Virus record (IMG/VR): IMGVR_UViG_3300037067_004615
Source: an uncultured virus (IMG/VR IMGVR_UViG_3300037067_004615)
Taxonomy: Duplodnaviria; Heunggongvirae; Uroviricota; Caudoviricetes
Length of the DNA stretch: 64,000 bases
Strand: one strand, 5' to 3'
Under the pieces are notes generated by a model that worked only from the letters and a program-made list of their open reading frames with translations, did no database searches and was not told the DNA's origin. Position 1 is the first letter of the stretch, and each line of letters opens with the position of its first letter. This document shows positions 1,973 to 58,595 of the stretch, piece by piece. A program made the position numbers and the translations under genes.

Positions 1973-2767
1973 ATGAACCATTTAAGTTTATTTTCAGGTA
2001 TCGGTGGAATTGATTTAGCAGCACAATGGGCCGGAATTAATACAGTGTGCTTTTGCGAAATAAATCCATTCTGCCAAAAAGTTTTAAACAAACATTGGCC
2101 TGATGTGCCAATTATAGGGGATATTAAAGATGTCACGAAAGAAAAAGTCAATATACTTACAAAATCCTCAACAATTGACCTTATTACAGGGGGATTCCCT
2201 TGTCAACCTGTTTCTAAGGCCGGACTCAGAAAAGGCTACTCAGATGACCGTTGGCTCTGGCCTGAAATGCTTAGAGTCATACGAGAAATTAAGCCCACTT
2301 GGGTTGTTGGCGAGAATGTTGATGGCCTCATCAATATGGCAATCGAAAACATCTTACTTGATTTGGAAAGTAGTAATTATATCACACAAACATTTCTTAT
2401 TCCAGCTTGTGCAGTTGGAGCAACCGACATCCGATACAGGGTTTTCATTGTTGCCCACTCCGGTAGCATCTTTAGCTCATTCGGGTTATTCAATCGGTAC
2501 TGCAATCAAACAAAGGGATGGGGTAAAAACTCGAAAATCGGGGGCAAAGATAGGGAGTTCATTGAAATGGCATCCATCCCTAATCGAAGAATACTTGACG
2601 AATCATGGGAATTTTCCAAACCCAAATTGGTTAGAATCGATGATGGGATTCCCAACGGATTGGACAGAATTAGAGCATTAGGTAACGCAGTAAAACCTCA
2701 ACAAGTTTACCCTATATTAAAAGTAATTTATGATATAGAACAACTTGATGTTTCAAAAAAACTTTAA
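1973..2767 (+). CDS. DNA cytosine-5 methyltransferase, large subunit
   Basis: Motif I LFSGIGG, motif IV GFPCQ, motif VI ENV, motif VIII RYRVFIV, motif X GNAV. Confidence 0.9.
   Translation: MNHLSLFSGIGGIDLAAQWAGINTVCFCEINPFCQKVLNKHWPDVPIIGDIKDVTKEKVNILTKSSTIDLITGGFPCQPVSKAGLRKGYSDDRWLWPEMLRVIREIKPTWVVGENVDGLINMAIENILLDLESSNYITQTFLIPACAVGATDIRYRVFIVAHSGSIFSSFGLFNRYCNQTKGWGKNSKIGGKDREFIEMASIPNRRILDESWEFSKPKLVRIDDGIPNGLDRIRALGNAVKPQQVYPILKVIYDIEQLDVSKKL
2130..2681 (+). CDS. Overlapping-frame small subunit of the C5 methyltransferase
   Basis: 183-aa +1-frame ORF nested in the MTase gene, with LLPTP and a C-terminal NPNWLESMMGFPTDWT resembling motif IX. Confidence 0.7.
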   Translation: MSRKKKSIYLQNPQQLTLLQGDSLVNLFLRPDSEKATQMTVGSGLKCLESYEKLSPLGLLARMLMASSIWQSKTSYLIWKVVIISHKHFLFQLVQLEQPTSDTGFSLLPTPVASLAHSGYSIGTAIKQRDGVKTRKSGAKIGSSLKWHPSLIEEYLTNHGNFPNPNWLESMMGFPTDWTELEH

Positions 2768-23380: not shown

Positions 23381-23459
23381 CTGGGCGTAGCATAGTATGT
23401 TTTAATGCGCCAAGTTTGGGGCTTGGATATCGGTTGTTAAAATCAACCCACTCAGACCA
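23381..23459 (+). tRNA. tRNA-Pro(TGG)
   Basis: Anticodon arm CCAAG-TTTGGGG-CTTGG; encoded CCA; atypical T-loop TTAAAAT. Confidence 0.8.
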
Positions 23460-23479
23460 ATTAAAAAATAATCACATAT

Positions 23480-23551
23480 GCCTCTATAGCACAATGGTAG
23501 TGCAACAATTTTGTAAATTGTGTGGTTTCGGTTCGAGTCCGTTTAGAGGTT
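23480..23551 (+). tRNA. tRNA-Thr(TGT)
   Basis: Anticodon arm ACAAT-TTTGTAA-ATTGT; GGTTCGAGTCC; no encoded CCA. Confidence 0.85.
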
Positions 23552-23568
23552 CTTTAATAAGTGAATAT

Positions 23569-23652
23569 GGGAAGGTGTCAGAGTGGTTTATTGAGAGTGT
23601 TTGCTAAACACTTGGGCTAATTACCCCACAGGTTCAAATCCTGTCCTTTCCG
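23569..23652 (+). tRNA. tRNA-Ser(GCT)
   Basis: Anticodon arm AGTGT-TTGCTAA-ACACT; long variable arm; G73. Confidence 0.9.
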
Positions 23653-23659
23653 TAAATAT

Positions 23660-23758
23660 TGGAGCGTGGGCGAGTGGTTGAAAGCCAATAGTCTCGAAAA
23701 CTATCAGACGAGCTAAAACAGTGATCGTCCGTGAGTCCGAATCTCACCGCTTCAGCCA
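23660..23758 (+). tRNA. tRNA-Ser(CGA)
   Basis: Anticodon arm ATAGT-CTCGAAA-ACTAT; long variable arm; GCCA end. Confidence 0.85.
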
Positions 23759-23768
23759 AATTTAATAT

Positions 23769-23847
23769 TGGTGTATGGCGCAAATAGGCAGACGCAACAC
23801 GCTTAGAACGTGTAAAACTTAGAGTTCGACTCTCTATACACCAACCA
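23769..23847 (+). tRNA. tRNA-Leu(TAG), short variable loop
   Basis: Anticodon arm ACACG-CTTAGAA-CGTGT; ACCA end. Confidence 0.85.
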
Positions 23848-23850
23848 AAT

Positions 23851-23927
23851 GCTAGATTAGCCCAACGGTAGAGGCAATAGTTTCAAAAACTATAAAGGTA
23901 CAAGTTCAAATCCTGTATCTAGCACCA
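23851..23927 (+). tRNA. tRNA-Leu(CAA), short variable loop
   Basis: Anticodon arm ATAGT-TTCAAAA-ACTAT; ACCA end. Confidence 0.85.
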
Positions 23928-23929
23928 AT

Positions 23930-24005
23930 GCTATTGTAGACCAACGGCAGAGTCAATAGACTTAAAATCTATGTAGTGTGCGTCCGAATCGCACCAATAG
24001 CACCA
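23930..24005 (+). tRNA. tRNA-Leu(TAA), short variable loop
   Basis: Anticodon arm ATAGA-CTTAAAA-TCTAT; ACCA end. Confidence 0.85.
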
Positions 24006-24009
24006 TCAT

Positions 24010-24100
24010 CGATTGGTAGCCAAGTGGTTGAAGGCGCATGACTGTAAATCATGTACCCATGTGGTAAACATCGTAGGTTCAAATCCTACTCAATCGACCA
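24010..24100 (+). tRNA. tRNA-Tyr(GTA) with C1-G72 and long variable arm
   Basis: Anticodon arm CATGA-CTGTAAA-TCATG; acceptor CGATTGG/TCAATCG followed by ACCA. Confidence 0.9.
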
Positions 24101-33273: not shown

Positions 33274-34566
33274 TTAAATAGTATTAATATTTTTAATAAA
33301 ATCCTTAGTAAGGCTTCTCAGTCTTACAGGGTGTAACCCTACACCCACTACCCCATCCGATTTAAAATCTTCTGGGAATACTTTCCGACCTATATTGTAC
33401 GACCCGTTTACATCTGAATTTATCAAAATTCCATCTTTGCTTTTGTACAGTCCACGCTTAATTCGTCTACCACTGAAGTTGGTTTCCAACCCTTCGACGT
33501 GTTCTTTCGGTAGTTCGTCATTGTCAATAAAACTCGCTTTACTCGTGTAACTTTCTTCAGTTTGTAAGAAATCTATACCTACATCTTCACATTTGTAGGT
33601 CAGTTTTTGAATAAAACTTTCATACGGTATTCCTACAAACTTTTGATTATTAACGTGTCCGATGTTGATCTCACGTTTCCAGTCTTTGTTCTTTCCAATT
33701 ACCAGCGTGTTGAATTCATTTTCGAGACAGTATTCAACTACTTTTTTACTGTAAACGTGCATCCAATATCCTATTTTATTGTTACGCTTGCGAGTAAATC
33801 TTTCGAGTTCGTTTGACCAATCTTTGTCATTTTCTTTCTTTAACGTAGACTTTTTCTCGGATAAAACTTTATTGTAATATTGATTTATAGACTTTAAAGT
33901 TCCGCCCTTAATAACTGCCGGTTTTAGTCCGACGTTATTTGTTAAAGTTGCAAAATTTTCAAGCCCTAAATCAATGGCACAGATTCGATAGTTAAACGGC
34001 TTTTTGTCTACTTTCACGACATTGTAAACCACCTCCAATTTATAAAAACTTCCACACGGCACGATACTAATTTGTTGAATGTTTGGTACTTTAGTTTTTA
34101 ATTTATAACTATCGAATATCTTTGGAAATGTTATAAAACCATCTTTTAAATGGCATTGTTGATTTGTGAAAACCACAACCGACCGTCCAGTTTTCTTCGC
34201 TTTGTAATCAGGTAATTTAGGTCTGCCATTATACTTTTCAGGGTGTTTTGACCAATCTTTGATCGACTTAAAGAATGACCCCCAATTTTTATCAAGTAGT
34301 TTCAAAGTTTGTTGAGAAGTTTGAGCGGGTAACGCTTTATAATCAGGTTGATCTTTGTATAATGTTTTATTCAAACTATTGTATCGAATCCAGTTTCCAT
34401 TGTTAATAAATTCTTGTCGGATTAAATAGTTAGCGTAGTTGTAGAGATTTTTACATTTAAACGACAAATCATCCAGAATCGGATAAAGTTCATGGCCTTT
34501 ACCAATTTGATGACTCTCAATTCGTTTGTTAAAATTAAGATTCTGTTTCATCTTCGTTCTGTTCAA
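33274..34566 (-). CDS. tnpB: IS607 TnpB RNA-guided nuclease
   Basis: KNLYNYANY, AIDLG, EESYTSKAS, INSDVNGSYNI. Confidence 0.9.
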   Translation of the reverse strand: MNRTKMKQNLNFNKRIESHQIGKGHELYPILDDLSFKCKNLYNYANYLIRQEFINNGNWIRYNSLNKTLYKDQPDYKALPAQTSQQTLKLLDKNWGSFFKSIKDWSKHPEKYNGRPKLPDYKAKKTGRSVVVFTNQQCHLKDGFITFPKIFDSYKLKTKVPNIQQISIVPCGSFYKLEVVYNVVKVDKKPFNYRICAIDLGLENFATLTNNVGLKPAVIKGGTLKSINQYYNKVLSEKKSTLKKENDKDWSNELERFTRKRNNKIGYWMHVYSKKVVEYCLENEFNTLVIGKNKDWKREINIGHVNNQKFVGIPYESFIQKLTYKCEDVGIDFLQTEESYTSKASFIDNDELPKEHVEGLETNFSGRRIKRGLYKSKDGILINSDVNGSYNIGRKVFPEDFKSDGVVGVGLHPVRLRSLTKDFIKNINTI

Positions 34567-35143
34567 GTAGTTCTTTTAATTTAGATCGTTTTCTACTACT
34601 GTACAATTTCATCGAATAACAATGTAATAAACTAATAATTTCCTCAAATATTTCTTGACTATCTAATTTAACGCTTCCAACTTCAGACATTACTACGATA
34701 TCTGTATTATATTTATCAAATAAGTGTTTAAATAAATCAAACCCTACACGGCTCATTCGATCTTTATAAGTGATTATTACTCGCTGTACATCACCTTTAA
34801 GTACTTCATCTAATAATTTAAAGAAGTCTTCACGTTTATCAAAACTAATTCCACTTGCTATATCGGAATAAATCCCGTTTATTATGTATCCATTACTAAA
34901 ACAAAATTGCTTTAATAATTCGATTTGGTTTTCCAAGTCAGGTTTTTGTTTGGGTGTAGATACTCTGGCGTAAATATAAGTTTTACGTTCCACTCCGTCC
35001 ATGAAATATTTATAGACGCTTTCTTTATCGTAATTATACAAACCACTATTTAATTTAGTTGCTTTGATCGTCCCATTTTTAATATACTTACACAGAGTAG
35101 GTCTAGATATCCGCAGTAATTTTAAAACATCTTTCGCTTTCAT
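34535..35143 (-). CDS. tnpA: IS607 TnpA serine transposase
   Basis: N-terminal HTH, YARVST..QK.DL..Q, DIASG, YKDRMSR. Confidence 0.92.
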   Translation of the reverse strand: MKAKDVLKLLRISRPTLCKYIKNGTIKATKLNSGLYNYDKESVYKYFMDGVERKTYIYARVSTPKQKPDLENQIELLKQFCFSNGYIINGIYSDIASGISFDKREDFFKLLDEVLKGDVQRVIITYKDRMSRVGFDLFKHLFDKYNTDIVVMSEVGSVKLDSQEIFEEIISLLHCYSMKLYSSRKRSKLKELLEQNEDETES

Positions 35144-53082: not shown

Positions 53083-53229
53083 ATGTTAGATAGAAAGAAA
53101 TGTTTAAGATGTTATCATGAATGGATACCACGAAGTGATGAAGTACCAAAAGTTTGTCCCAAGTGTCATAGCCCTTATTGGGATAGAGTGAAAATAATTA
53201 GAGAAAAGAGGATTAAAGAGATATTTTAA
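53083..53229 (+). CDS. Small zinc-ribbon protein (48 aa)
   Basis: MLDRKKCLRCYHEWIPRSDEVPKVCPKCHSPYWDR; TTGACA promoter at 53048. Confidence 0.7.
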   Translation: MLDRKKCLRCYHEWIPRSDEVPKVCPKCHSPYWDRVKIIREKRIKEIF

Positions 53230-53471
53230 TGGGTATAATTGAAATACTTGATGCGATTAGTCTGTATAGTTATGATAGTAACGAACTAAAGGAAGTAGCA
53301 AACAGATTAAGATGTAAGGGTTTTTGGGTTTCAGCACCACCTTTAAATAAAGACACTAATTACCTCTGGTCGAAAGTTTCAAAAAATGCCAAGGAGAAAG
53401 CAAATTATACATGTGAAATATGCGGATGTAATGAAAAAACTAAAATTATAGCTCATCTGATGAAACACTAA
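53229..53471 (+). pseudogene. Truncated HNH endonuclease
   Basis: W.KVS...KEKANYTCEICG......IIAH, then an abrupt junction with tnpB sequence. Confidence 0.6.
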
Positions 53472-54612
53472 CTAAGTCAGAGAAGTGGTTAGAACTTTGT
53501 CGTGAGTTATATAATTCAGCATTAGCAGAGAGAATTGGCGCATATCGATATCAACGTGTTTCATTATCGGGTTATACTCAAATGTTAGAACTACCAGAAA
53601 TTAAAGACGCAATCCCTGAATACGAGACTATAAATTCTCAAGTTTTGCAACAGTGTTTAGACAGACTTCAAAAAGCGTTTCAAAGTTTCTTTCGCAGGGT
53701 AAAGAAATGTGAGAAGCCCGGATTCCCACGGTTTAAAGGATACGGACGATACAACTCATTCACGCTTAAAAACACAGGCTGGAAGTTAGAAGACAGATAC
53801 CTTTGGGTGAAGAATGTTGGTCGGTTTAAAATGAAACTGAGTAGACCAATTCAGGGTGAAATTAAAACCATCACGATTAACCGGACACCATCGGGAAAGT
53901 GGTATGCCTCATTTAGTTGTGGGAACATTGAACCTAAACCGTTGTCACCTAACGATAGAGTAGTTGGGATTGATGTAGGGATAAAATATTTTCTAGCAGA
54001 TTCAGAAGGCGTAGTAGTTGATAACCCTCACTATTTAAAAGAAAGTGAACGTAAATTAAGGGTGAGACAACGTAGATTATCAAGGCGTAAGAAAGGTTCA
54101 ATAGGGCGTAAAGAAGCCAAAGTTTTAGTAGCGAAGACTCATGAACACATAGTTAATCAACGTCAAGATTTTCAACATAAAAAAGCAAACGAATATATTG
54201 AAAATTATGGAACAATATGTTTTGAAAATTTAATGATAAAGAACATGGTAAGGAACAAACATTTAGCCAAAGCGATAAGTGACGCAAGTTGGGGAAGATT
54301 CTTCAATATGTTAAAGTACAAAGCAGAATACGCTGGTAGGATAGCGATTGAAGTGCCACCCCATAATTCAAGTCAGATATGTTCAGGGTGTGGACAAGTC
54401 GTTGCGAAATCGCTATCGGTCAGGACACATATCTGTCCATATTGTGGATTAGTGTTAGACCGGGATGTAAATGCGGCTAAAAATCATAAACACAGAGGTC
54501 TAGCGATACTAGACAAGTTGGTTAGGATAGAGCCATTAAGCGACAACGTAGGCATCGGCATAGGTCATGCGTAGCTTAAGAATCCCCCAAATTTATTTGT
54601 GGGGAGTGTCAA
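53459..54612 (+). mobile_element. 5'-truncated IS200/IS605-family tnpB element
   Basis: tnpB frame open from about 53459 without a start; right-end hairpin GAATCCCC...GGGGAGTGTCAA. Confidence 0.75.
53582..54574 (+). CDS. tnpB: IS605-type TnpB (N-terminus missing)
   Basis: PGFPRFK, GIDVG, CFENL, SQICSGCG, CPYCG, DRDVNAA. Confidence 0.85.
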   Translation: MLELPEIKDAIPEYETINSQVLQQCLDRLQKAFQSFFRRVKKCEKPGFPRFKGYGRYNSFTLKNTGWKLEDRYLWVKNVGRFKMKLSRPIQGEIKTITINRTPSGKWYASFSCGNIEPKPLSPNDRVVGIDVGIKYFLADSEGVVVDNPHYLKESERKLRVRQRRLSRRKKGSIGRKEAKVLVAKTHEHIVNQRQDFQHKKANEYIENYGTICFENLMIKNMVRNKHLAKAISDASWGRFFNMLKYKAEYAGRIAIEVPPHNSSQICSGCGQVVAKSLSVRTHICPYCGLVLDRDVNAAKNHKHRGLAILDKLVRIEPLSDNVGIGIGHA

Positions 54613-55866: not shown

Positions 55867-55895
55867 TTGACTAATATTAAATAGTGTGCTATGAT
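55867..55895 (+). promoter_or_regulatory. Sigma70 promoter for the intron-split gene
   Basis: TTGACT-17 nt-TATGAT with extended -10 TG. Confidence 0.75.
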
Positions 55896-55983
55896 ATCAA
55901 TTAGTAAACAAAATTGGGGGCTGAAACACCCTCCACGGTAGGTCAGCAAATTCAGATTAAAAGTCTGAATTAGAATTAAATAG

Positions 55984-56424
55984 ATGAAAATTACGGCAAT
56001 TGTTATGGTCATGGTCAGACTGATATTGCCGTTTGTCAATTAAAACCCGGCCTGCTCTGGAAGTAATTTCAGATGCATAGTCTCCCTAATGCGGTGAAGC
56101 CCTAACCTTTAATTAAGGTGGGTAATGCCGAGCCAAGCATAAAGTGGTTATATCCATTTTAAGGCGTGTGTAGAAAACTTACAGGAGATACCCTGAATAA
56201 ATTATATTTATAAGGGTAAAGACAAGTTGCAAGATACGTACCGTAAGGTATGACACAAAAATGGGTTTGTTATCGGTGCCAACTTAATCTCACCTATTAA
56301 TACGGCGACTAGTGTCATCGTGACTCCTACCTATTCCCAGGCGGTTAGTTCATTGTCCGCTCTTTTGACCCTTATCTTTGTGGTTATACTCATTATTATG
56401 GGGGTTAAATCAATCGAAGCCTAG
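55984..56424 (+). CDS. Intron-split small hydrophobic protein, putative major coat protein (join 55984-56015, 56262-56424; 64 aa)
   Basis: Predicted spliced product MKITAIVMVMVGFVIGANLISPINTATSVIVTPTYSQAVSSLSALLTLIFVVILIIMGVKSIEA; the exon 2 frame is closed by TGA 56251 and has no early ATG. Confidence 0.65.
56016..56261 (+). ncRNA. Group I intron with non-canonical P7 and predicted omega-A
   Basis: P AATGCGGTGAA, Q AATGCCGAGCC, R GTAGAAAACTT, S AAGACAAGTTGC, P3 TCTCC/GGAGA, P8 TACCCT/AGGGTA, GUAA loops on P2 and P9. Confidence 0.8.
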
Positions 56425-56430
56425 TACCAT

Positions 56431-56468
56431 AAGGGGAGTTTTGAACGAAAGTTCGGCTCCCCTTTCTT
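56431..56468 (+). terminator. Intrinsic terminator
   Basis: AAGGGGAG...CTCCCCTT stem with a GAAA-capped inner hairpin followed by TCTT. Confidence 0.65.
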
Positions 56469-56498
56469 CTAACAAAAAATATAATGCAAGGCAATTAA

Positions 56499-56678
56499 AT
56501 GGCGACACAAAAGAAAGTATTAAAAAAGAACGAACGGAAGCTAAAAGGGAAGTGGCAACCGATCAGAAAAGGTGGGCTTATAAATCGTGGAATAGACTTA
56601 GAACATTCATATCATTATCAAGAAAGTCGAGAAGAAAAATTAAAAAGGTTAGGTGTGATAAATGGCAAGAAAAGCTAG
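56499..56678 (+). CDS. Basic small protein (59 aa)
   Basis: MATQKKVLKKNERKLKGKWQPIRKGGL..., read by hand. Confidence 0.55.
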   Translation: MATQKKVLKKNERKLKGKWQPIRKGGLINRGIDLEHSYHYQESREEKLKRLGVINGKKS

Positions 56679-56742
56679 AAAATCAACAAGAAAAACCAGA
56701 AAGAGTACAAGGAAATCAAGAAGAAGTTCAAAGCGTAGATAA
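56662..56742 (+). CDS. Protamine-like peptide (26 aa)
   Basis: MARKARKSTRKTRKSTRKSRRSSKRR; AGGTG RBS. Confidence 0.7.
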   Translation: MARKARKSTRKTRKSTRKSRRSSKRR

Positions 56743-56749
56743 GGGCTAA

Positions 56750-57070
56750 ATGAAAGTCAAAATTCGGAAAGTTTATTACAAAAGAATTAAGAGCGGGCGT
56801 GACCCTGTGAGGTTTGAGGCGGTACAACCGAATGGGTTAAATACCGATGTTCATGCTGTAGTGAAAATTGACCCAATTTTAAAAAAGTATCCTGATTTAA
56901 GAAAACCAATGCTACAACATGAGAAACATGAGTTGGTGATGTGGGGCAAGGGTCACGCTGACGCTCATTCTCACGCAAAAAGAAAAGAACCAAAACGTAC
57001 ACGATGTATCGGTGGGGTTAAAGGTTTCTGGTCGGAAATTAAAAAGCGTGAATATAAAAGGAGAAAGTAG
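56750..57070 (+). CDS. Basic protein with HExHE (zincin-like) motif
   Basis: MLQHEKHEL...AHSHA. Confidence 0.55.
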   Translation: MKVKIRKVYYKRIKSGRDPVRFEAVQPNGLNTDVHAVVKIDPILKKYPDLRKPMLQHEKHELVMWGKGHADAHSHAKRKEPKRTRCIGGVKGFWSEIKKREYKRRK

Positions 57071-57071
57071 T

Positions 57072-58595
57072 ATGGTAGTGAAAAGGAAAACTTGCAAAAA
57101 GACTGCTACTAAATCCCGTAAGGGTAAGGGCAAATGGTTAATGGGGAAACGGAATGTGCATATTAACGTTAGAGGGTCAAGATATACTACATTACCAGAA
57201 GGTACAAAAACTGCGTTAGATGCCCCTATGCCTTATGGTATAAAACCGATTAAACGTAGAAGGAAGTAGTGTGTTTATATGCGAAAGCATAGAGTGTTAT
57301 TAAGTAGAATTTGGAAACAGGATGGTAAATCTAAGACTTGTGTTGCAAAATTCCATCACGAAGTTCAAAAAAGGAAAGGGGATTCAAAATGAAAAAAAGA
57401 AATGTTCATAGCAAAGTTAAGGGGCGAAACGTCCGCTCAAGGGTTGACGGACTGAAACTTAACTTTAAGGGTGGATTTTTAAAAGGTTCTCAAAAATCAA
57501 GCAAAATGGGATTATTTTAGGGTAATCAAATGAATAATTATGTGAAACGGAATTGGTTGAAAAGTGGTGGGATTAAAATAGATTATAAGGGTGGGTTTTT
57601 GCCAAAACAATCTGTAAGGCGGAAACGTGGTGGTTGGATTGACAGCGATGGAACAGACCAACCGGAAACTGGAAAGTTTACTGATTATGTGGGTAGTTTT
57701 AAAGACTACATTTAAGGGTGTGATGTATGGTTAAACGTAAGGTCGCTAGAAAAACAAATGGTCGTTGGGGTTTTCCTATTGGCGATTCAAAAGGCATTGC
57801 ATATAAGGAAAGTCGGGAATCTAAACGTAAACGTATCATGACAGAACGTACCGAAAAAGCTAAACTTAAGTCTGACTTAAAGGAACAAAAACGATTGGAT
57901 AAACTTCAAGCGTTAAAACGGCAAACTGAAGTTGCTGAAGCGAAATATAAACTAAGAACCACTGAGCGAAAAGCAATGTTAGCACACCCATTGGGGCGAA
58001 TTGGTTTAAGTTCGTCGTTTGGAAAAGGCAAAAAACGTCGTAAAATAAGTTGGATTTAAAAGGAAGGTGTTAAAATGGCAAAGCGTACTAAAAGATCAGT
58101 CAAGTCTAAGGGGTACAAAGTTCCAGAAAAGGGTTTTCTATCTATGGTTTCAGATGTCAAGAAAAAGAATTGGTCACCTAAGTGGAAAATTTAAGGTAGC
58201 AAAATGCGAATCTTTCAATTAACGGACTATTGCTTTTGGGCGTAGTCCGTTTTTTGAAAAACTAGGTGGATGGGAATGGTTAAGAATATAGTCTGCCCTG
58301 AGTGTAAATCTAAGAATATTCATAAGTATGGTCACATGAAAAAACGGATTAAAGGCACAAAGAAGGTTGTCTTAGTACAACGTTTCCGGTGCTATACTTG
58401 TTTGCATCAATTCGGGCGGAAAGGAGAATAACTATGTCACCTGTTATCGTCAGAAAAATTCGAGGGAAGCGTTTCTGGACTGTGAAAGAAAAACGTAAAG
58501 GTGGTCGGATTTTTGCTCGTAAAACTACAAAAAAACGAGCATTAGCGCAACTTCGCTTGCTACGTGGGTTGGCACATGGTATGATTAAAAGGTAA
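57072..58595 (+). other. Run of small K/R-rich genes and one zinc ribbon
   Basis: ORFs 57072-57269, 57279-57392, 57389-57520, 57530-57715, 57727-58059, 58075-58194, 58276-58431 (CPEC...CYTC), 58434-58595. Confidence 0.65.

What the first reader, a model, noticed from the sequence alone, without database searches (positions are those of the whole stretch)
56011..56270. Group I intron with a remodelled guanosine-binding site and a predicted terminal adenosine (omega-A)
Seen: all core group I elements are present, but P7 is AACUU (56176-80)/AAGUU (56224-28), flanked by GAA and GC, instead of GACUA/UAGUC. The G-C pair that binds guanosine (G264-C311 in Tetrahymena numbering) is absent in either register. 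The guide AAACCCG-G-CCUG (56043-54) pairs with the exon 1 end CAUGGU, giving the canonical U-G wobble at 56015/56050. It also pairs with UGGGUUU (56262-68) as a 7-bp P10 stacked directly on P1. This places the 3' splice site after A56261, and GT|T GGG TTT restores a 64-aa frame. Established: group I introns almost always end in omega-G, and changing this P7 pair alters nucleoside specificity. Inference: a natural ribozyme that uses or ends in adenosine, possibly coupling coat-protein synthesis to a different nucleotide pool.
Basis: partly seen in the sequence, partly recalled or inferred. Interest (0 to 1): 0.95.

Follow-up and report, generated by a model that had tools for sequence, protein, structure and literature searches.

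The report
Group I intron ending in adenosine
A small self-splicing-type intron that splits a 64-codon phage-like gene lacks the usual guanosine-binding base pair and ends in A instead of the near-universal G, which suggests a natural ribozyme that has switched from guanosine to adenosine.

Summary
A 246-nt insert (56016-56261) splits a 64-codon gene. An intron-less allele (L001) encodes exactly the protein obtained by joining U56015 to U56262.

A homologous insert at the same codon in L015/L016 is a bona fide group I intron (Rfam 54.9 bits, threshold 50). It has the canonical P7 (GACUU/AAGUC) and ends in G. The window and its 78%-identical relative L004 have all the same helices: 22 of 68 pairs show changes on both sides.

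Their P7 is AACUU/AAGUU with no G-C binding pair in either register, and both introns end in A. Rfam does not detect them even at E<=10.

The window and L004 exons differ at 40 of 64 codons, and every difference is synonymous. These alleles are therefore expressed, and the introns must splice.

Best reading (0.62): a functional group I intron whose nucleoside pocket now takes a terminal A, and probably an adenosine cofactor. This would be the natural counterpart of the engineered Tetrahymena switch of Been and Perrotta (1991).

A terminal A is already known in hexacoral mitochondrial ND5-717 introns. A terminal A together with loss of the G-C pair was not found in print. Only one lineage is in hand and there is no RNA evidence. 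Verdict: new variant of a known kind, interest 0.85.

The parts
55867..55895 (+). sigma-70-like promoter TTGACT-17-TATGAT with TG before the -10
   Evidence: 10 of 12 matches; the region has no more such sites than shuffles, so on its own this is weak. A similar TTGACA-17-TATGCT stands upstream in L015 (read).
55984..56015 (+). exon 1: MKITAIVMVM plus the first two bases of the Val codon
   Evidence: Identical residues in L001, L004 and L015.
56016..56261 (+). group I intron, 246 nt, no ORF
   Evidence: Homologous to the Rfam-positive L015 intron at the same codon. All helices are supported by covariation.
56043..56052 (+). internal guide. 56049-52 pairs with 56013-16 (P1, U56015-G56050 wobble). 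56043-49 pairs with 56262-68 (P10).
   Evidence: The pair at intron +1 is C-G in the window and L004 and A-U in L015. The pair at the first base of exon 2 is G-U, G-C and U-G in the three.
56053..56077 (+). P2 hairpin with GUAA loop
   Evidence: helix 3: 5 of 10 pairs changed on both sides.
56080..56085 (+). P3 5' strand (pairs with 56184-89)
   Evidence: helix 4: 3 of 6 pairs changed on both sides, 100% paired.
56091..56131 (+). P4-P5-P5a domain (P4 56092-96/56126-30; P5 about 56099-103/56120-23; P5a 56105-09/56115-19), with A-rich J4/5 (GAA) and J5/4 (AAU)
56132..56165 (+). P6 and P6a (56132-34/56163-65; 56140-47/56154-61)
56173..56180 (+). P7 5' strand: G56173 (top pair with C56230), A56174-A56175 unpaired or opposite G56229, then AACUU 56176-80
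   Evidence: L015 has GACUU(U) here.
56184..56189 (+). P3 3' strand GGAGAU
56189..56218 (+). P8 hairpin (UACCCU/AGGGUA)
56219..56230 (+). J8/7 (AAGAC(A)) and P7 3' strand AAGUU 56224-28, followed by G56229 and C56230
   Evidence: L015 has AAGAUA-AAGUC-C.
56237..56252 (+). P9 hairpin CGUACC-GUAA-GGUAUG
   Evidence: helix 12: 4 of 6 pairs changed on both sides.
56261..56261 (+). last base of the intron: A, where G is expected (omega position)
   Evidence: Junction fixed by the intron-less allele and by homologues. L004 has A here and L015 has G.
56262..56424 (+). exon 2: third base of the Val codon, then GFVIGANL...KSIEA and the stop
56433..56469 (+). GC-rich hairpin (GGGGAG...CUCCCC) followed by UUUCUUC; terminator-like
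   Evidence: Read. The scan did not call it, so this is my reading only.

Best explanation
This is a functional, ORF-less group I intron of 246 nt in a small, strongly conserved hydrophobic-protein gene of a phage-like element.

Shown by comparison: the 5' splice site follows U56015, which forms the U-G wobble with G56050 in P1. The 3' splice site follows A56261. The first exon-2 base, U56262, starts a 7-bp P10 that stacks directly on P1. The whole P1-P10 architecture, including the P3/P7 pseudoknot, is conserved with compensatory changes.

The canonical guanosine-binding G-C pair of P7 is gone. By motif it is replaced by A56176-U56228. By position the place is taken by A56175 opposite G56229. 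At the same time the terminal base has changed from G to A.

Inferred: in the second step the terminal A docks in the remodelled pocket. Group I introns use one nucleoside site for both steps, so the first step probably uses an adenosine nucleotide (ATP, AMP or adenosine) instead of guanosine. The engineered Tetrahymena A264:U311 plus 3'-terminal G-to-A mutant behaves this way.
For: 1. Intron-less alleles. 24 of 30 homologues found are uninterrupted proteins of 62-67 aa. L001 encodes the identical 64 aa and reads ...ATGGTC GGG TTT... across the site.

2. Homology to a bona fide group I intron. The insert at the same codon in L015/L016 scores 54.9 bits on RF00028, whose threshold is 50. It aligns with the window at 117 of 218 positions and with L004 at 138 of 220.

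3. Structure. 68 pairs in 12 helices, 92.1% of cells paired, 22 pairs changed on both sides, 0 of 500 shuffles reach this.

4. Register. All four L015 introns follow the rule 'U before the 5' splice site, G as last base', and joining them by that rule gives the same 64 aa. The same rule gives U|...A| in the window and in L004. U-G is invariant in 3 of 3 sequences. The neighbouring guide base pairs with intron +1 (C-G, C-G, A-U) and with the first exon-2 base (G-U, G-C, U-G).

5. Covariation of pocket and terminal base. All 4 L015 introns have G-C at the top of P7 and end in G (P7 read by eye; ends). The window and L004 (2 of 2) have no such pair and end in A.

6. Function. The window and L004 differ at 40 of 64 codons, all synonymous. 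The figures are 30 of 64 and 32 of 64 against L001, again with 0 non-synonymous. The window and L004 also differ by compensatory changes in P2, P3 and P9.

7. Not an assembly error. A contig of another study (X2) covers 56084-56235 with only one substitution and one 1-base deletion, both in the P8 loop. An L004-like contig in X1 also keeps both P7 strands.

8. Literature. A mutant group I intron promotes adenosine transfer, citing Been and Perrotta, Science 1991 (passage and reference seen in PMC3245953). The details of that mutant are recalled, not read.
Against: There is no RNA evidence, so neither the junction nor the cofactor has been observed.

Only one independent lineage carries the A-type pocket. 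The window and L004 share ancestry, so the covariation of pocket and terminal base rests on a single evolutionary event.

The equivalence of A56176-U56228 to G264-C311 is not secure. J8/7 is 6 nt in all four canonical L015 introns. If it is also 6 nt here, the binding layer is A56175 opposite G56229 in the window and U opposite G in L004. That layer is not conserved between the two and has no experimental precedent for adenosine binding.

The protein cannot separate the junction U|...A| from a junction one base further on (C56016|...U56262|). Both give V-G-F.

Hexacoral ND5-717 introns end in A, and their authors still assume a guanosine cofactor. A terminal A therefore does not by itself imply an adenosine cofactor.

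P1 has only four contiguous pairs.
Confidence: 0.62

Rival explanations
1. Same intron and same junction (terminal A), but the exogenous cofactor is still guanosine. The terminal A is tolerated or selected for another reason. [quoted passage not shown] The P7 changes would then be drift or compensation.
For: ND5-717 introns end in A, are spliced in vivo, and are drawn with an exogenous guanosine cofactor (passages of PMC8146996 and PMC6545197). The layer that sits by position at the binding site is not conserved between the window (A opposite G) and L004 (U opposite G). That is odd for a specific new pocket.
Against: No G(5')-C(3') pair is available in P7 in either register, so it is unclear where guanosine would bind. 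The recalled result of Been and Perrotta (1991) is that one site serves both steps. The loss of the G-C pair and the change of the terminal base occur together in this lineage.
Confidence: 0.2
2. The intron splices at other sites. One option is one base further on at both ends (C56016|...U56262|). Another is a G as last base (G56264), which deletes the Gly codon and gives a 63-aa protein.
For: The +1 register gives the same V-G-F protein and the same GGTC|GGG string as L001. G56264 in the window and G2019 in L004 would both keep the frame (my reading).
Against: The +1 register puts C, not U, before the 5' splice site in the window and L004. It also makes the last base U, C and G in the three homologues. 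Applied to the four canonical L015 introns, it would give C, G, A and U instead of G in 4 of 4. The G56264 option removes a Gly that is present in the identical 64-aa products of L001 and L015 and in 18 of 24 full-length homologues. It also makes intron bases pair with the guide and still lacks a G-binding pair.
Confidence: 0.07
3. A decayed intron that no longer splices, so the gene is dead in the window and in L004.
For: Rfam does not recognise it. The two most conserved group I features are missing. No RNA data exist.
Against: Between the window and L004 there are 0 non-synonymous against 40 synonymous codon differences, and the protein is identical to that of the intron-less L001. There are compensatory changes in P2, P3 and P9 between the window and L004. 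Promoter-like and terminator-like signals are kept.
Confidence: 0.05
4. Not an intron: another structured RNA or a 5' leader, with the 34-aa GTG ORF (56320-56424) as the real gene.
For: The closing helix 56043-49/56262-68 is the outermost stem of the minimum-energy fold. Rfam gives no family.
Against: Exon 1 plus exon 2 reproduce a protein found uninterrupted elsewhere. The same-site homologue is Rfam-positive for RF00028.
Confidence: 0.02

Closest known systems
Compact ORF-less bacterial and phage group I introns (Rfam RF00028), represented here by the same-site intron of L015/L016
   Same: Same insertion site. Same P1-P10 helices and P3/P7 pseudoknot. U-G wobble at the 5' splice site, a guide that pairs with both exons, an AAGAYA-type J8/7, and GNRA-type loops on P2 and P9.
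   Different: The top P7 pair G-C is lost and the terminal base is A, not G. J6/7 is one base (window) or two bases (L004) longer under the motif reading. There is no RF00028 match even at E<=10.
Engineered Tetrahymena intron with the G264:C311 pair changed to A:U and the 3'-terminal G changed to A (Been and Perrotta, Science 1991; title seen in the reference list of PMC3245953, content recalled)
   Same: Read by motif (GACU/AGUC becomes AACU/AGUU), the window carries the same pair change together with the same terminal-base change.
   Different: The window intron is natural, in a different group I lineage, and carries extra unpaired bases next to the pair (A56174-75 and G56229). By position, the layer could be A opposite G rather than A-U. 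Activity has not been tested.
Hexacoral mitochondrial ND5-717 group I introns (PMC8146996, PMC6545197; passages read)
   Same: Natural group I introns that end in A instead of G and still give correctly ligated exons in vivo.
   Different: They are mitochondrial, giant (genes sit inside P8), thought to depend on host factors, and drawn with an exogenous guanosine. The passages I read mention no change of the G-binding pair, and I could not see the figures. The window intron is small and phage-like, and its G-C pair is gone.

Membership tests
Group I intron | P1 formed by the 5' exon end and an internal guide, with a U-G wobble at the cleavage site | tested here: met
   U56015-G56050 is invariant in 3 of 3 homologues. 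The flanking pair covaries: C-G, C-G, A-U.
Group I intron | Conserved core helices P3-P9 with the P3/P7 pseudoknot | tested here: met
   12 helices and 68 pairs, 92.1% paired, 22 pairs changed on both sides, 0 of 500 shuffles reach this. Caveats: only three sequences, and part of the structure was derived from the same alignment.
Group I intron | P10 between the guide and the 3' exon | tested here: met
   56043-49 pairs with 56262-68 (7 bp). The first pair is G-U, G-C and U-G in the three sequences.
Group I intron | Guanosine-binding G-C pair in P7 (G on the 5' strand) | tested here: not met
   The P7 layers in the window are A/G, A-U, A-U, C-G, U-A, U-A. L015 has G-C at the top.
Group I intron | Terminal guanosine | tested here: not met
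   The last base is A56261 in the register fixed by the intron-less allele and homologues. L004 also has A, and L015 has G in 4 of 4 introns.
Group I intron | Score at or above the gathering threshold of RF00028 | tested here: not met
   No match at gathering or at E<=10. L004 has no match at E<=1. The same-site homologue in L015 scores 54.9 bits against a threshold of 50.
Group I intron | Sequence homology to an accepted member at the same insertion site | tested here: met
   Identity to the L015 intron is 117 of 218 positions for the window and 138 of 220 for L004. The exon context is the same.
Group I intron | Self-splicing by two transesterifications started by a free nucleoside | not testable with these tools
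   No RNA run was listed. This needs in-vitro transcription and splicing.
Adenosine-specific group I variant (engineered precedent only) | A-U at the G264-C311 position together with a terminal A | tested here: inconclusive
   A terminal A is supported. A-U is at that position under the motif alignment (A56176-U56228). Under the position alignment it is A56175 opposite G56229.
Spindle-shaped-virus major capsid protein (Pfam PF25665 His1_capsid), for the host gene | Score at or above Pfam's gathering score | tested here: not met
   17 of 24 family members match over nearly the full length, but below threshold. The best E is 0.00047, and P0002 scores 19.2 bits against a threshold of 27. The Atlas gives the same lead. 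PHROGs gives nothing.

The most novel reading that the evidence does not exclude
This is a natural lineage of group I ribozymes that has switched nucleoside specificity from guanosine to adenosine. It would be started by ATP or adenosine and end in A. Nature would then have made the same specificity switch that was engineered in 1991, and such introns would be going unnoticed because the standard covariance model does not see them.
Probability: 0.45. Interest if true: 0.92.

Novelty: new variant of a known kind. Interest (0 to 1): 0.85.

Why it matters
The guanosine cofactor and the terminal G are the textbook constants of group I splicing. A natural intron that has lost the G-C binding pair, ends in A, and is still kept under selection in an expressed gene would have four consequences.

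- It would show that the nucleoside pocket is evolvable in nature.
- It would give a natural ribozyme with an adenosine or ATP site to study structurally.
- It would offer an orthogonal splicing or circularisation module.
- It would show that searches based on RF00028 miss such variants, so their true frequency is unknown.

The test is simple and directly available: in-vitro splicing with ATP against GTP.

Tried and rejected
- **Rfam on the window.** Gathering threshold and E<=10 on 1.3 kb and on 271 nt gave no group I match. This is not evidence against an intron, because the same-site homologue is positive.
- **Whole genome.** None is held.
- **Phage collection.** blastn in distant mode gave no match.
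- **Viral contigs.** The protein alignment found 63 pattern matches, none a relative. A 17-nt J8/7-P7' pattern found 120 or more stretches, none related by nhmmer. A gapped P7 pattern found 6 stretches, none related.
- **Genome contigs.** The protein alignment gave 1 weak locus (55% identity over residues 16-36), taken as spurious.
- **Records behind metagenome loci.** They could not be searched.
- **Custom covariance model R1.** Over the whole window with filters off, only the intron itself matched (267.7 bits). The next best hit was 15.1 bits, so there is no second copy.
- **Antisense ORF across the intron 3' end.** Used as a protein query, it found no candidate (after one search was too short).
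- **Earlier scan notes.** Nothing by words, sequence or place.
- **Sequencing runs.** No RNA holder was listed. The runs laid were all contigs, and none bridges the junction.
- **Literature.** Searches for a natural adenosine-type group I intron found no such report: ('group I intron' with 'omegaA'). One search found the ND5-717 precedent for a terminal A. Supplements and figures of those papers were not seen.
- **Rejected readings.** TnpB guide RNA: the nearest TnpB-like ORF ends at 54574, about 1.4 kb upstream. A translational bypass or a group II intron: the size and helices do not fit, and the homologue is Rfam group I.

Full report
**1. What is in the sequence**

A short ORF starts at 55984 (MKITAIVMVMV...) and runs into a stop at 56041. 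A second open frame begins right after a stop at 56251-53 and reads ...GFVIGANLISPINTATSV...KSIEA up to 56424, but it has no start codon of its own before GTG 56320. Between them lies a stretch that is more structured on the + strand than on the - strand: z -2.63 with 0 of 100 shuffles as good, against z -1.20 with 16 of 100. Rfam reports only six tRNAs in the window at the gathering score. It gives no group I match over this stretch even at E<=10.

**2. The gene is split, and uninterrupted alleles exist**

A search with the exon-2 translation found 30 proteins. Of these, 24 are uninterrupted proteins of 62-67 aa whose N-termini match exon 1, for example P0002, which begins MKITAIVMVMVGMVIGANL. 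Two others, P0019 and P0026, look like ORFs that read out of an upstream insert into the conserved part.

The one metagenome scan returned 16 loci.
- L001 carries an uninterrupted gene whose product is identical to exon 1 plus exon 2 of the window joined as GT|T GGG TTT. Its DNA reads ATGGTC GGG TTT across the site.
- L004 carries a 236-nt insert at the same codon.
- L014 carries two inserts at other codons.
- L015 and L016 are identical to each other over the same-site insert (checked). They carry four inserts in this 195-nt gene, one of them at the window's codon.

**3. The insert is a group I intron by homology and by structure**

In L015 the insert at the window's codon scores 54.9 bits on RF00028, above the threshold of 50. 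The other three score 73, 46.9 and 23.5 bits. L004, L014 and L001 gave no RF00028 match at E<=1 in that call.

In the MAFFT alignment the window intron is identical to L004 at 181 of 231 aligned positions, and to the L015 intron at 117 of 218. L004 against L015 is 138 of 220.

RNAalifold predicts P2, P3, P4, P5, P5a, P6, P6a, P8, P9 and the guide-exon 2 helix, with 19 of 62 pairs compensated. I then added P1, P7 and P10 by hand as a pseudoknotted structure.
- 92.1% of 203 cells pair.
- 22 of 68 pairs have a change on both sides, against a shuffled mean of 8.4.
- 0 of 500 shuffles reach that value.
- Only 1-7 such pairs remain when partners are slid by 1-3 columns.

The caveats are that there are only three sequences and that part of the structure was derived from this same alignment.

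**4. Where the splice sites are**

All four L015 introns have U before the 5' splice site and G as last base. Joining their exons by that rule gives exactly the 64-aa protein of L001. In the three same-site introns the exon U pairs with a guide G (U-G in 3 of 3). The next guide base pairs with the first intron base (C-G, C-G, A-U), and alternatively with the first base of exon 2 (G-U, G-C, U-G). This is the classical P1/P10 arrangement.

In this register the three introns end as follows:

| Locus | 3' end of intron / start of exon 2 |
|---|---|
| Window | ...CAAAAA / UGGGUUU |
| L004 | ...AUAAAA / CGGUUUU |
| L015 | ...AGAAAG / GGGUUUU |

The base after the junction (U, C, G) behaves as the free third position of a Val codon. 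The base before it is A, A, G.

The protein alone cannot exclude a junction one base further on at both ends. That register would put C before the 5' splice site in the window and L004. In the four canonical L015 introns it would give last bases C, G, A and U instead of four G.

A G as last base at 56264 (2019 in L004) keeps the frame but deletes a Gly. That Gly is present in the otherwise identical products of L001 and L015, and in 18 of 24 full-length homologues.

**5. The nucleoside pocket**

The four canonical L015 introns have P7 of the form G-N-N-N-N / N-N-N-N-C: GAACA/UGUUC, GACUU/AAGUC, GACUA/UAGUC and GACUG/CAGUC. Each is preceded by a top pair and one bulged base, and each follows a 6-nt J8/7 (read by eye; the alignment to the Rfam consensus AGACUA...AUAGUC is).

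The window and L004 keep the top pair (G56173-C56230) and a helix AACUU/AAGUU. No G on the 5' strand is paired to a C on the 3' strand in any register. Two alignments are possible.

- **By motif:** GACU/AGUC has become AACU/AGUU. The G-C pair is replaced by A56176-U56228, with A56174-75 and G56229 as extra unpaired bases. J8/7 would then be 5 nt.
- **By position (no indels, J8/7 of 6 nt):** the layer next to the bulge is A56175 opposite G56229 in the window, and U opposite G in L004. The A-U layer would then correspond to the conserved A265-U310 layer below it.

In the window, the base at the place of G264 is an A under both alignments. I cannot decide between the two from sequence. In both, the canonical site is gone and the terminal base has changed with it.

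**6. The intron is kept functional**

The window and L004 exons differ at 51 of 192 nucleotides and 40 of 64 codons, with no amino-acid change. Against the intron-less L001 the figures are 30 and 32 codons, again with no amino-acid change. The two A-type introns also differ by pair-preserving changes in P2, P3 and P9. A gene under such purifying selection must be expressed, so the intron must be removed accurately.

The unusual letters are not an assembly error. A contig from a different study (X2) covers 56084-56235 with one substitution and one 1-base deletion, both in the P8 loop. An L004-like contig in X1 keeps both P7 strands.

**7. Mechanism**

Shown: a group I fold, the junction register (by comparison), loss of the G-C pair, and a terminal A.

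Inferred: the terminal A occupies the remodelled pocket in the second step, and the first step uses an adenosine nucleotide. The basis is the single-site model of group I splicing and Been and Perrotta (Science 1991). As I recall that paper, changing G264:C311 to A:U made the Tetrahymena intron prefer adenosine or ATP, and exon ligation was restored only when the 3'-terminal G was changed to A. [quoted passage not shown]

**8. What is already known**

A terminal A is not unprecedented. The hexacoral mitochondrial ND5-717 intron ends in A and still yields perfectly ligated exons in vivo. Its authors draw an exogenous guanosine and suggest that the A prevents 3' hydrolysis and circularisation (passages of PMC8146996 and PMC6545197). 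Those passages do not mention an altered binding pair, and I could not see the figures.

My searches found no report of a natural group I intron that combines a terminal A with loss of the G-C pair, or that uses adenosine. The library does not cover most subscription journals.

**9. Context**

The window looks like a phage or other mobile element of a bacterium.
- Pfam matches include a phage O-type replication protein, a DnaC/IstB-like ATPase, a primase-helicase-like protein, two DNA methylases, an RNA ligase, a serine resolvase next to a TnpB-like protein, and a second TnpB-like protein.
- There are eight tRNA genes. The tRNA-Tyr is 91 nt long, which I take as the bacterial long-arm type (inference).
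- Upstream of the split gene is a sigma-70-like TTGACT-17-TATGAT, and downstream is a hairpin plus U-run.

The 64-aa protein has two hydrophobic stretches and often occurs in tandem copies in other loci. It matches Pfam His1_capsid in 17 of 24 members, but always below threshold, and PHROGs gives nothing. 'Coat protein' is therefore a lead, not a finding.

**10. Verdict**

The cofactor, and which P7 layer binds it, remain to be tested. So does how widespread such introns are. All scans of viral and genome collections for further examples came back empty, so the pocket and terminal-base covariation rests on one lineage.

Noticed in passing
L015 847-1888 (L016 is identical over the same-site insert): The same 195-nt gene carries four group I introns (211, 223, 195 and 218 nt). 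This leaves exons of 17, 15, 71, 13 and 79 nt. Joined by the U|...G| rule, they give the identical 64-aa protein. That is an extreme intron density, with a 13-nt mini-exon.
   Followed up: partly
window 55993-56000 with 56025-56032: An 8-bp helix forms between exon 1 codons (ACGGCAAU) and the P1 loop of the intron (AUUGCCGU). L004 keeps 7 of 8 pairs with one compensatory change (G-C to A-U, synonymous in the exon). It might sequester or present the 5' splice site, or couple folding to translation.
   Followed up: partly
window 55937-55983: The leader has a motif GGUAGGUCAG followed by a hairpin whose stem covaries in L004 and L015. There is no Shine-Dalgarno-like sequence before the AUG.
   Followed up: no
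window 56499-58595: A run of small, very lysine- and arginine-rich ORFs lies directly downstream of the split gene. None matched Pfam or PHROGs.
   Followed up: no
window 33274-35143 (-) and 53582-54574 (+): A serine resolvase ORF overlaps a TnpB-like ORF, in an IS607-like arrangement. A second, shorter TnpB-like ORF (330 aa) lies 1.4 kb upstream of the split gene.
   Followed up: no
window 1973-2767: A C-5 cytosine methylase ORF matches only the first half of PF00145 (profile positions 1-163 of 324), and an overlapping ORF lies in another frame. It may be truncated, frameshifted or interrupted. Model R1 found no intron there.
   Followed up: no
window 23381-24100: A cluster of eight tRNA genes (Pro, Thr, Ser x2, Leu x3, Tyr). 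Rfam lists six of them at the gathering score.
   Followed up: no
window 53229-53471: An 80-aa ORF has weak PHROGs matches to HNH endonucleases (E about 3e-4). It could be a free-standing homing-type endonuclease near the intron-bearing gene.
   Followed up: no
L012 426-534: An Rfam STnc490 match above threshold (63.4 bits against 56) sits next to a relative of the 64-aa gene.
   Followed up: no
L003, L005-L010: The 64-aa gene occurs as two or three tandem paralogues in several metagenome loci.
   Followed up: no
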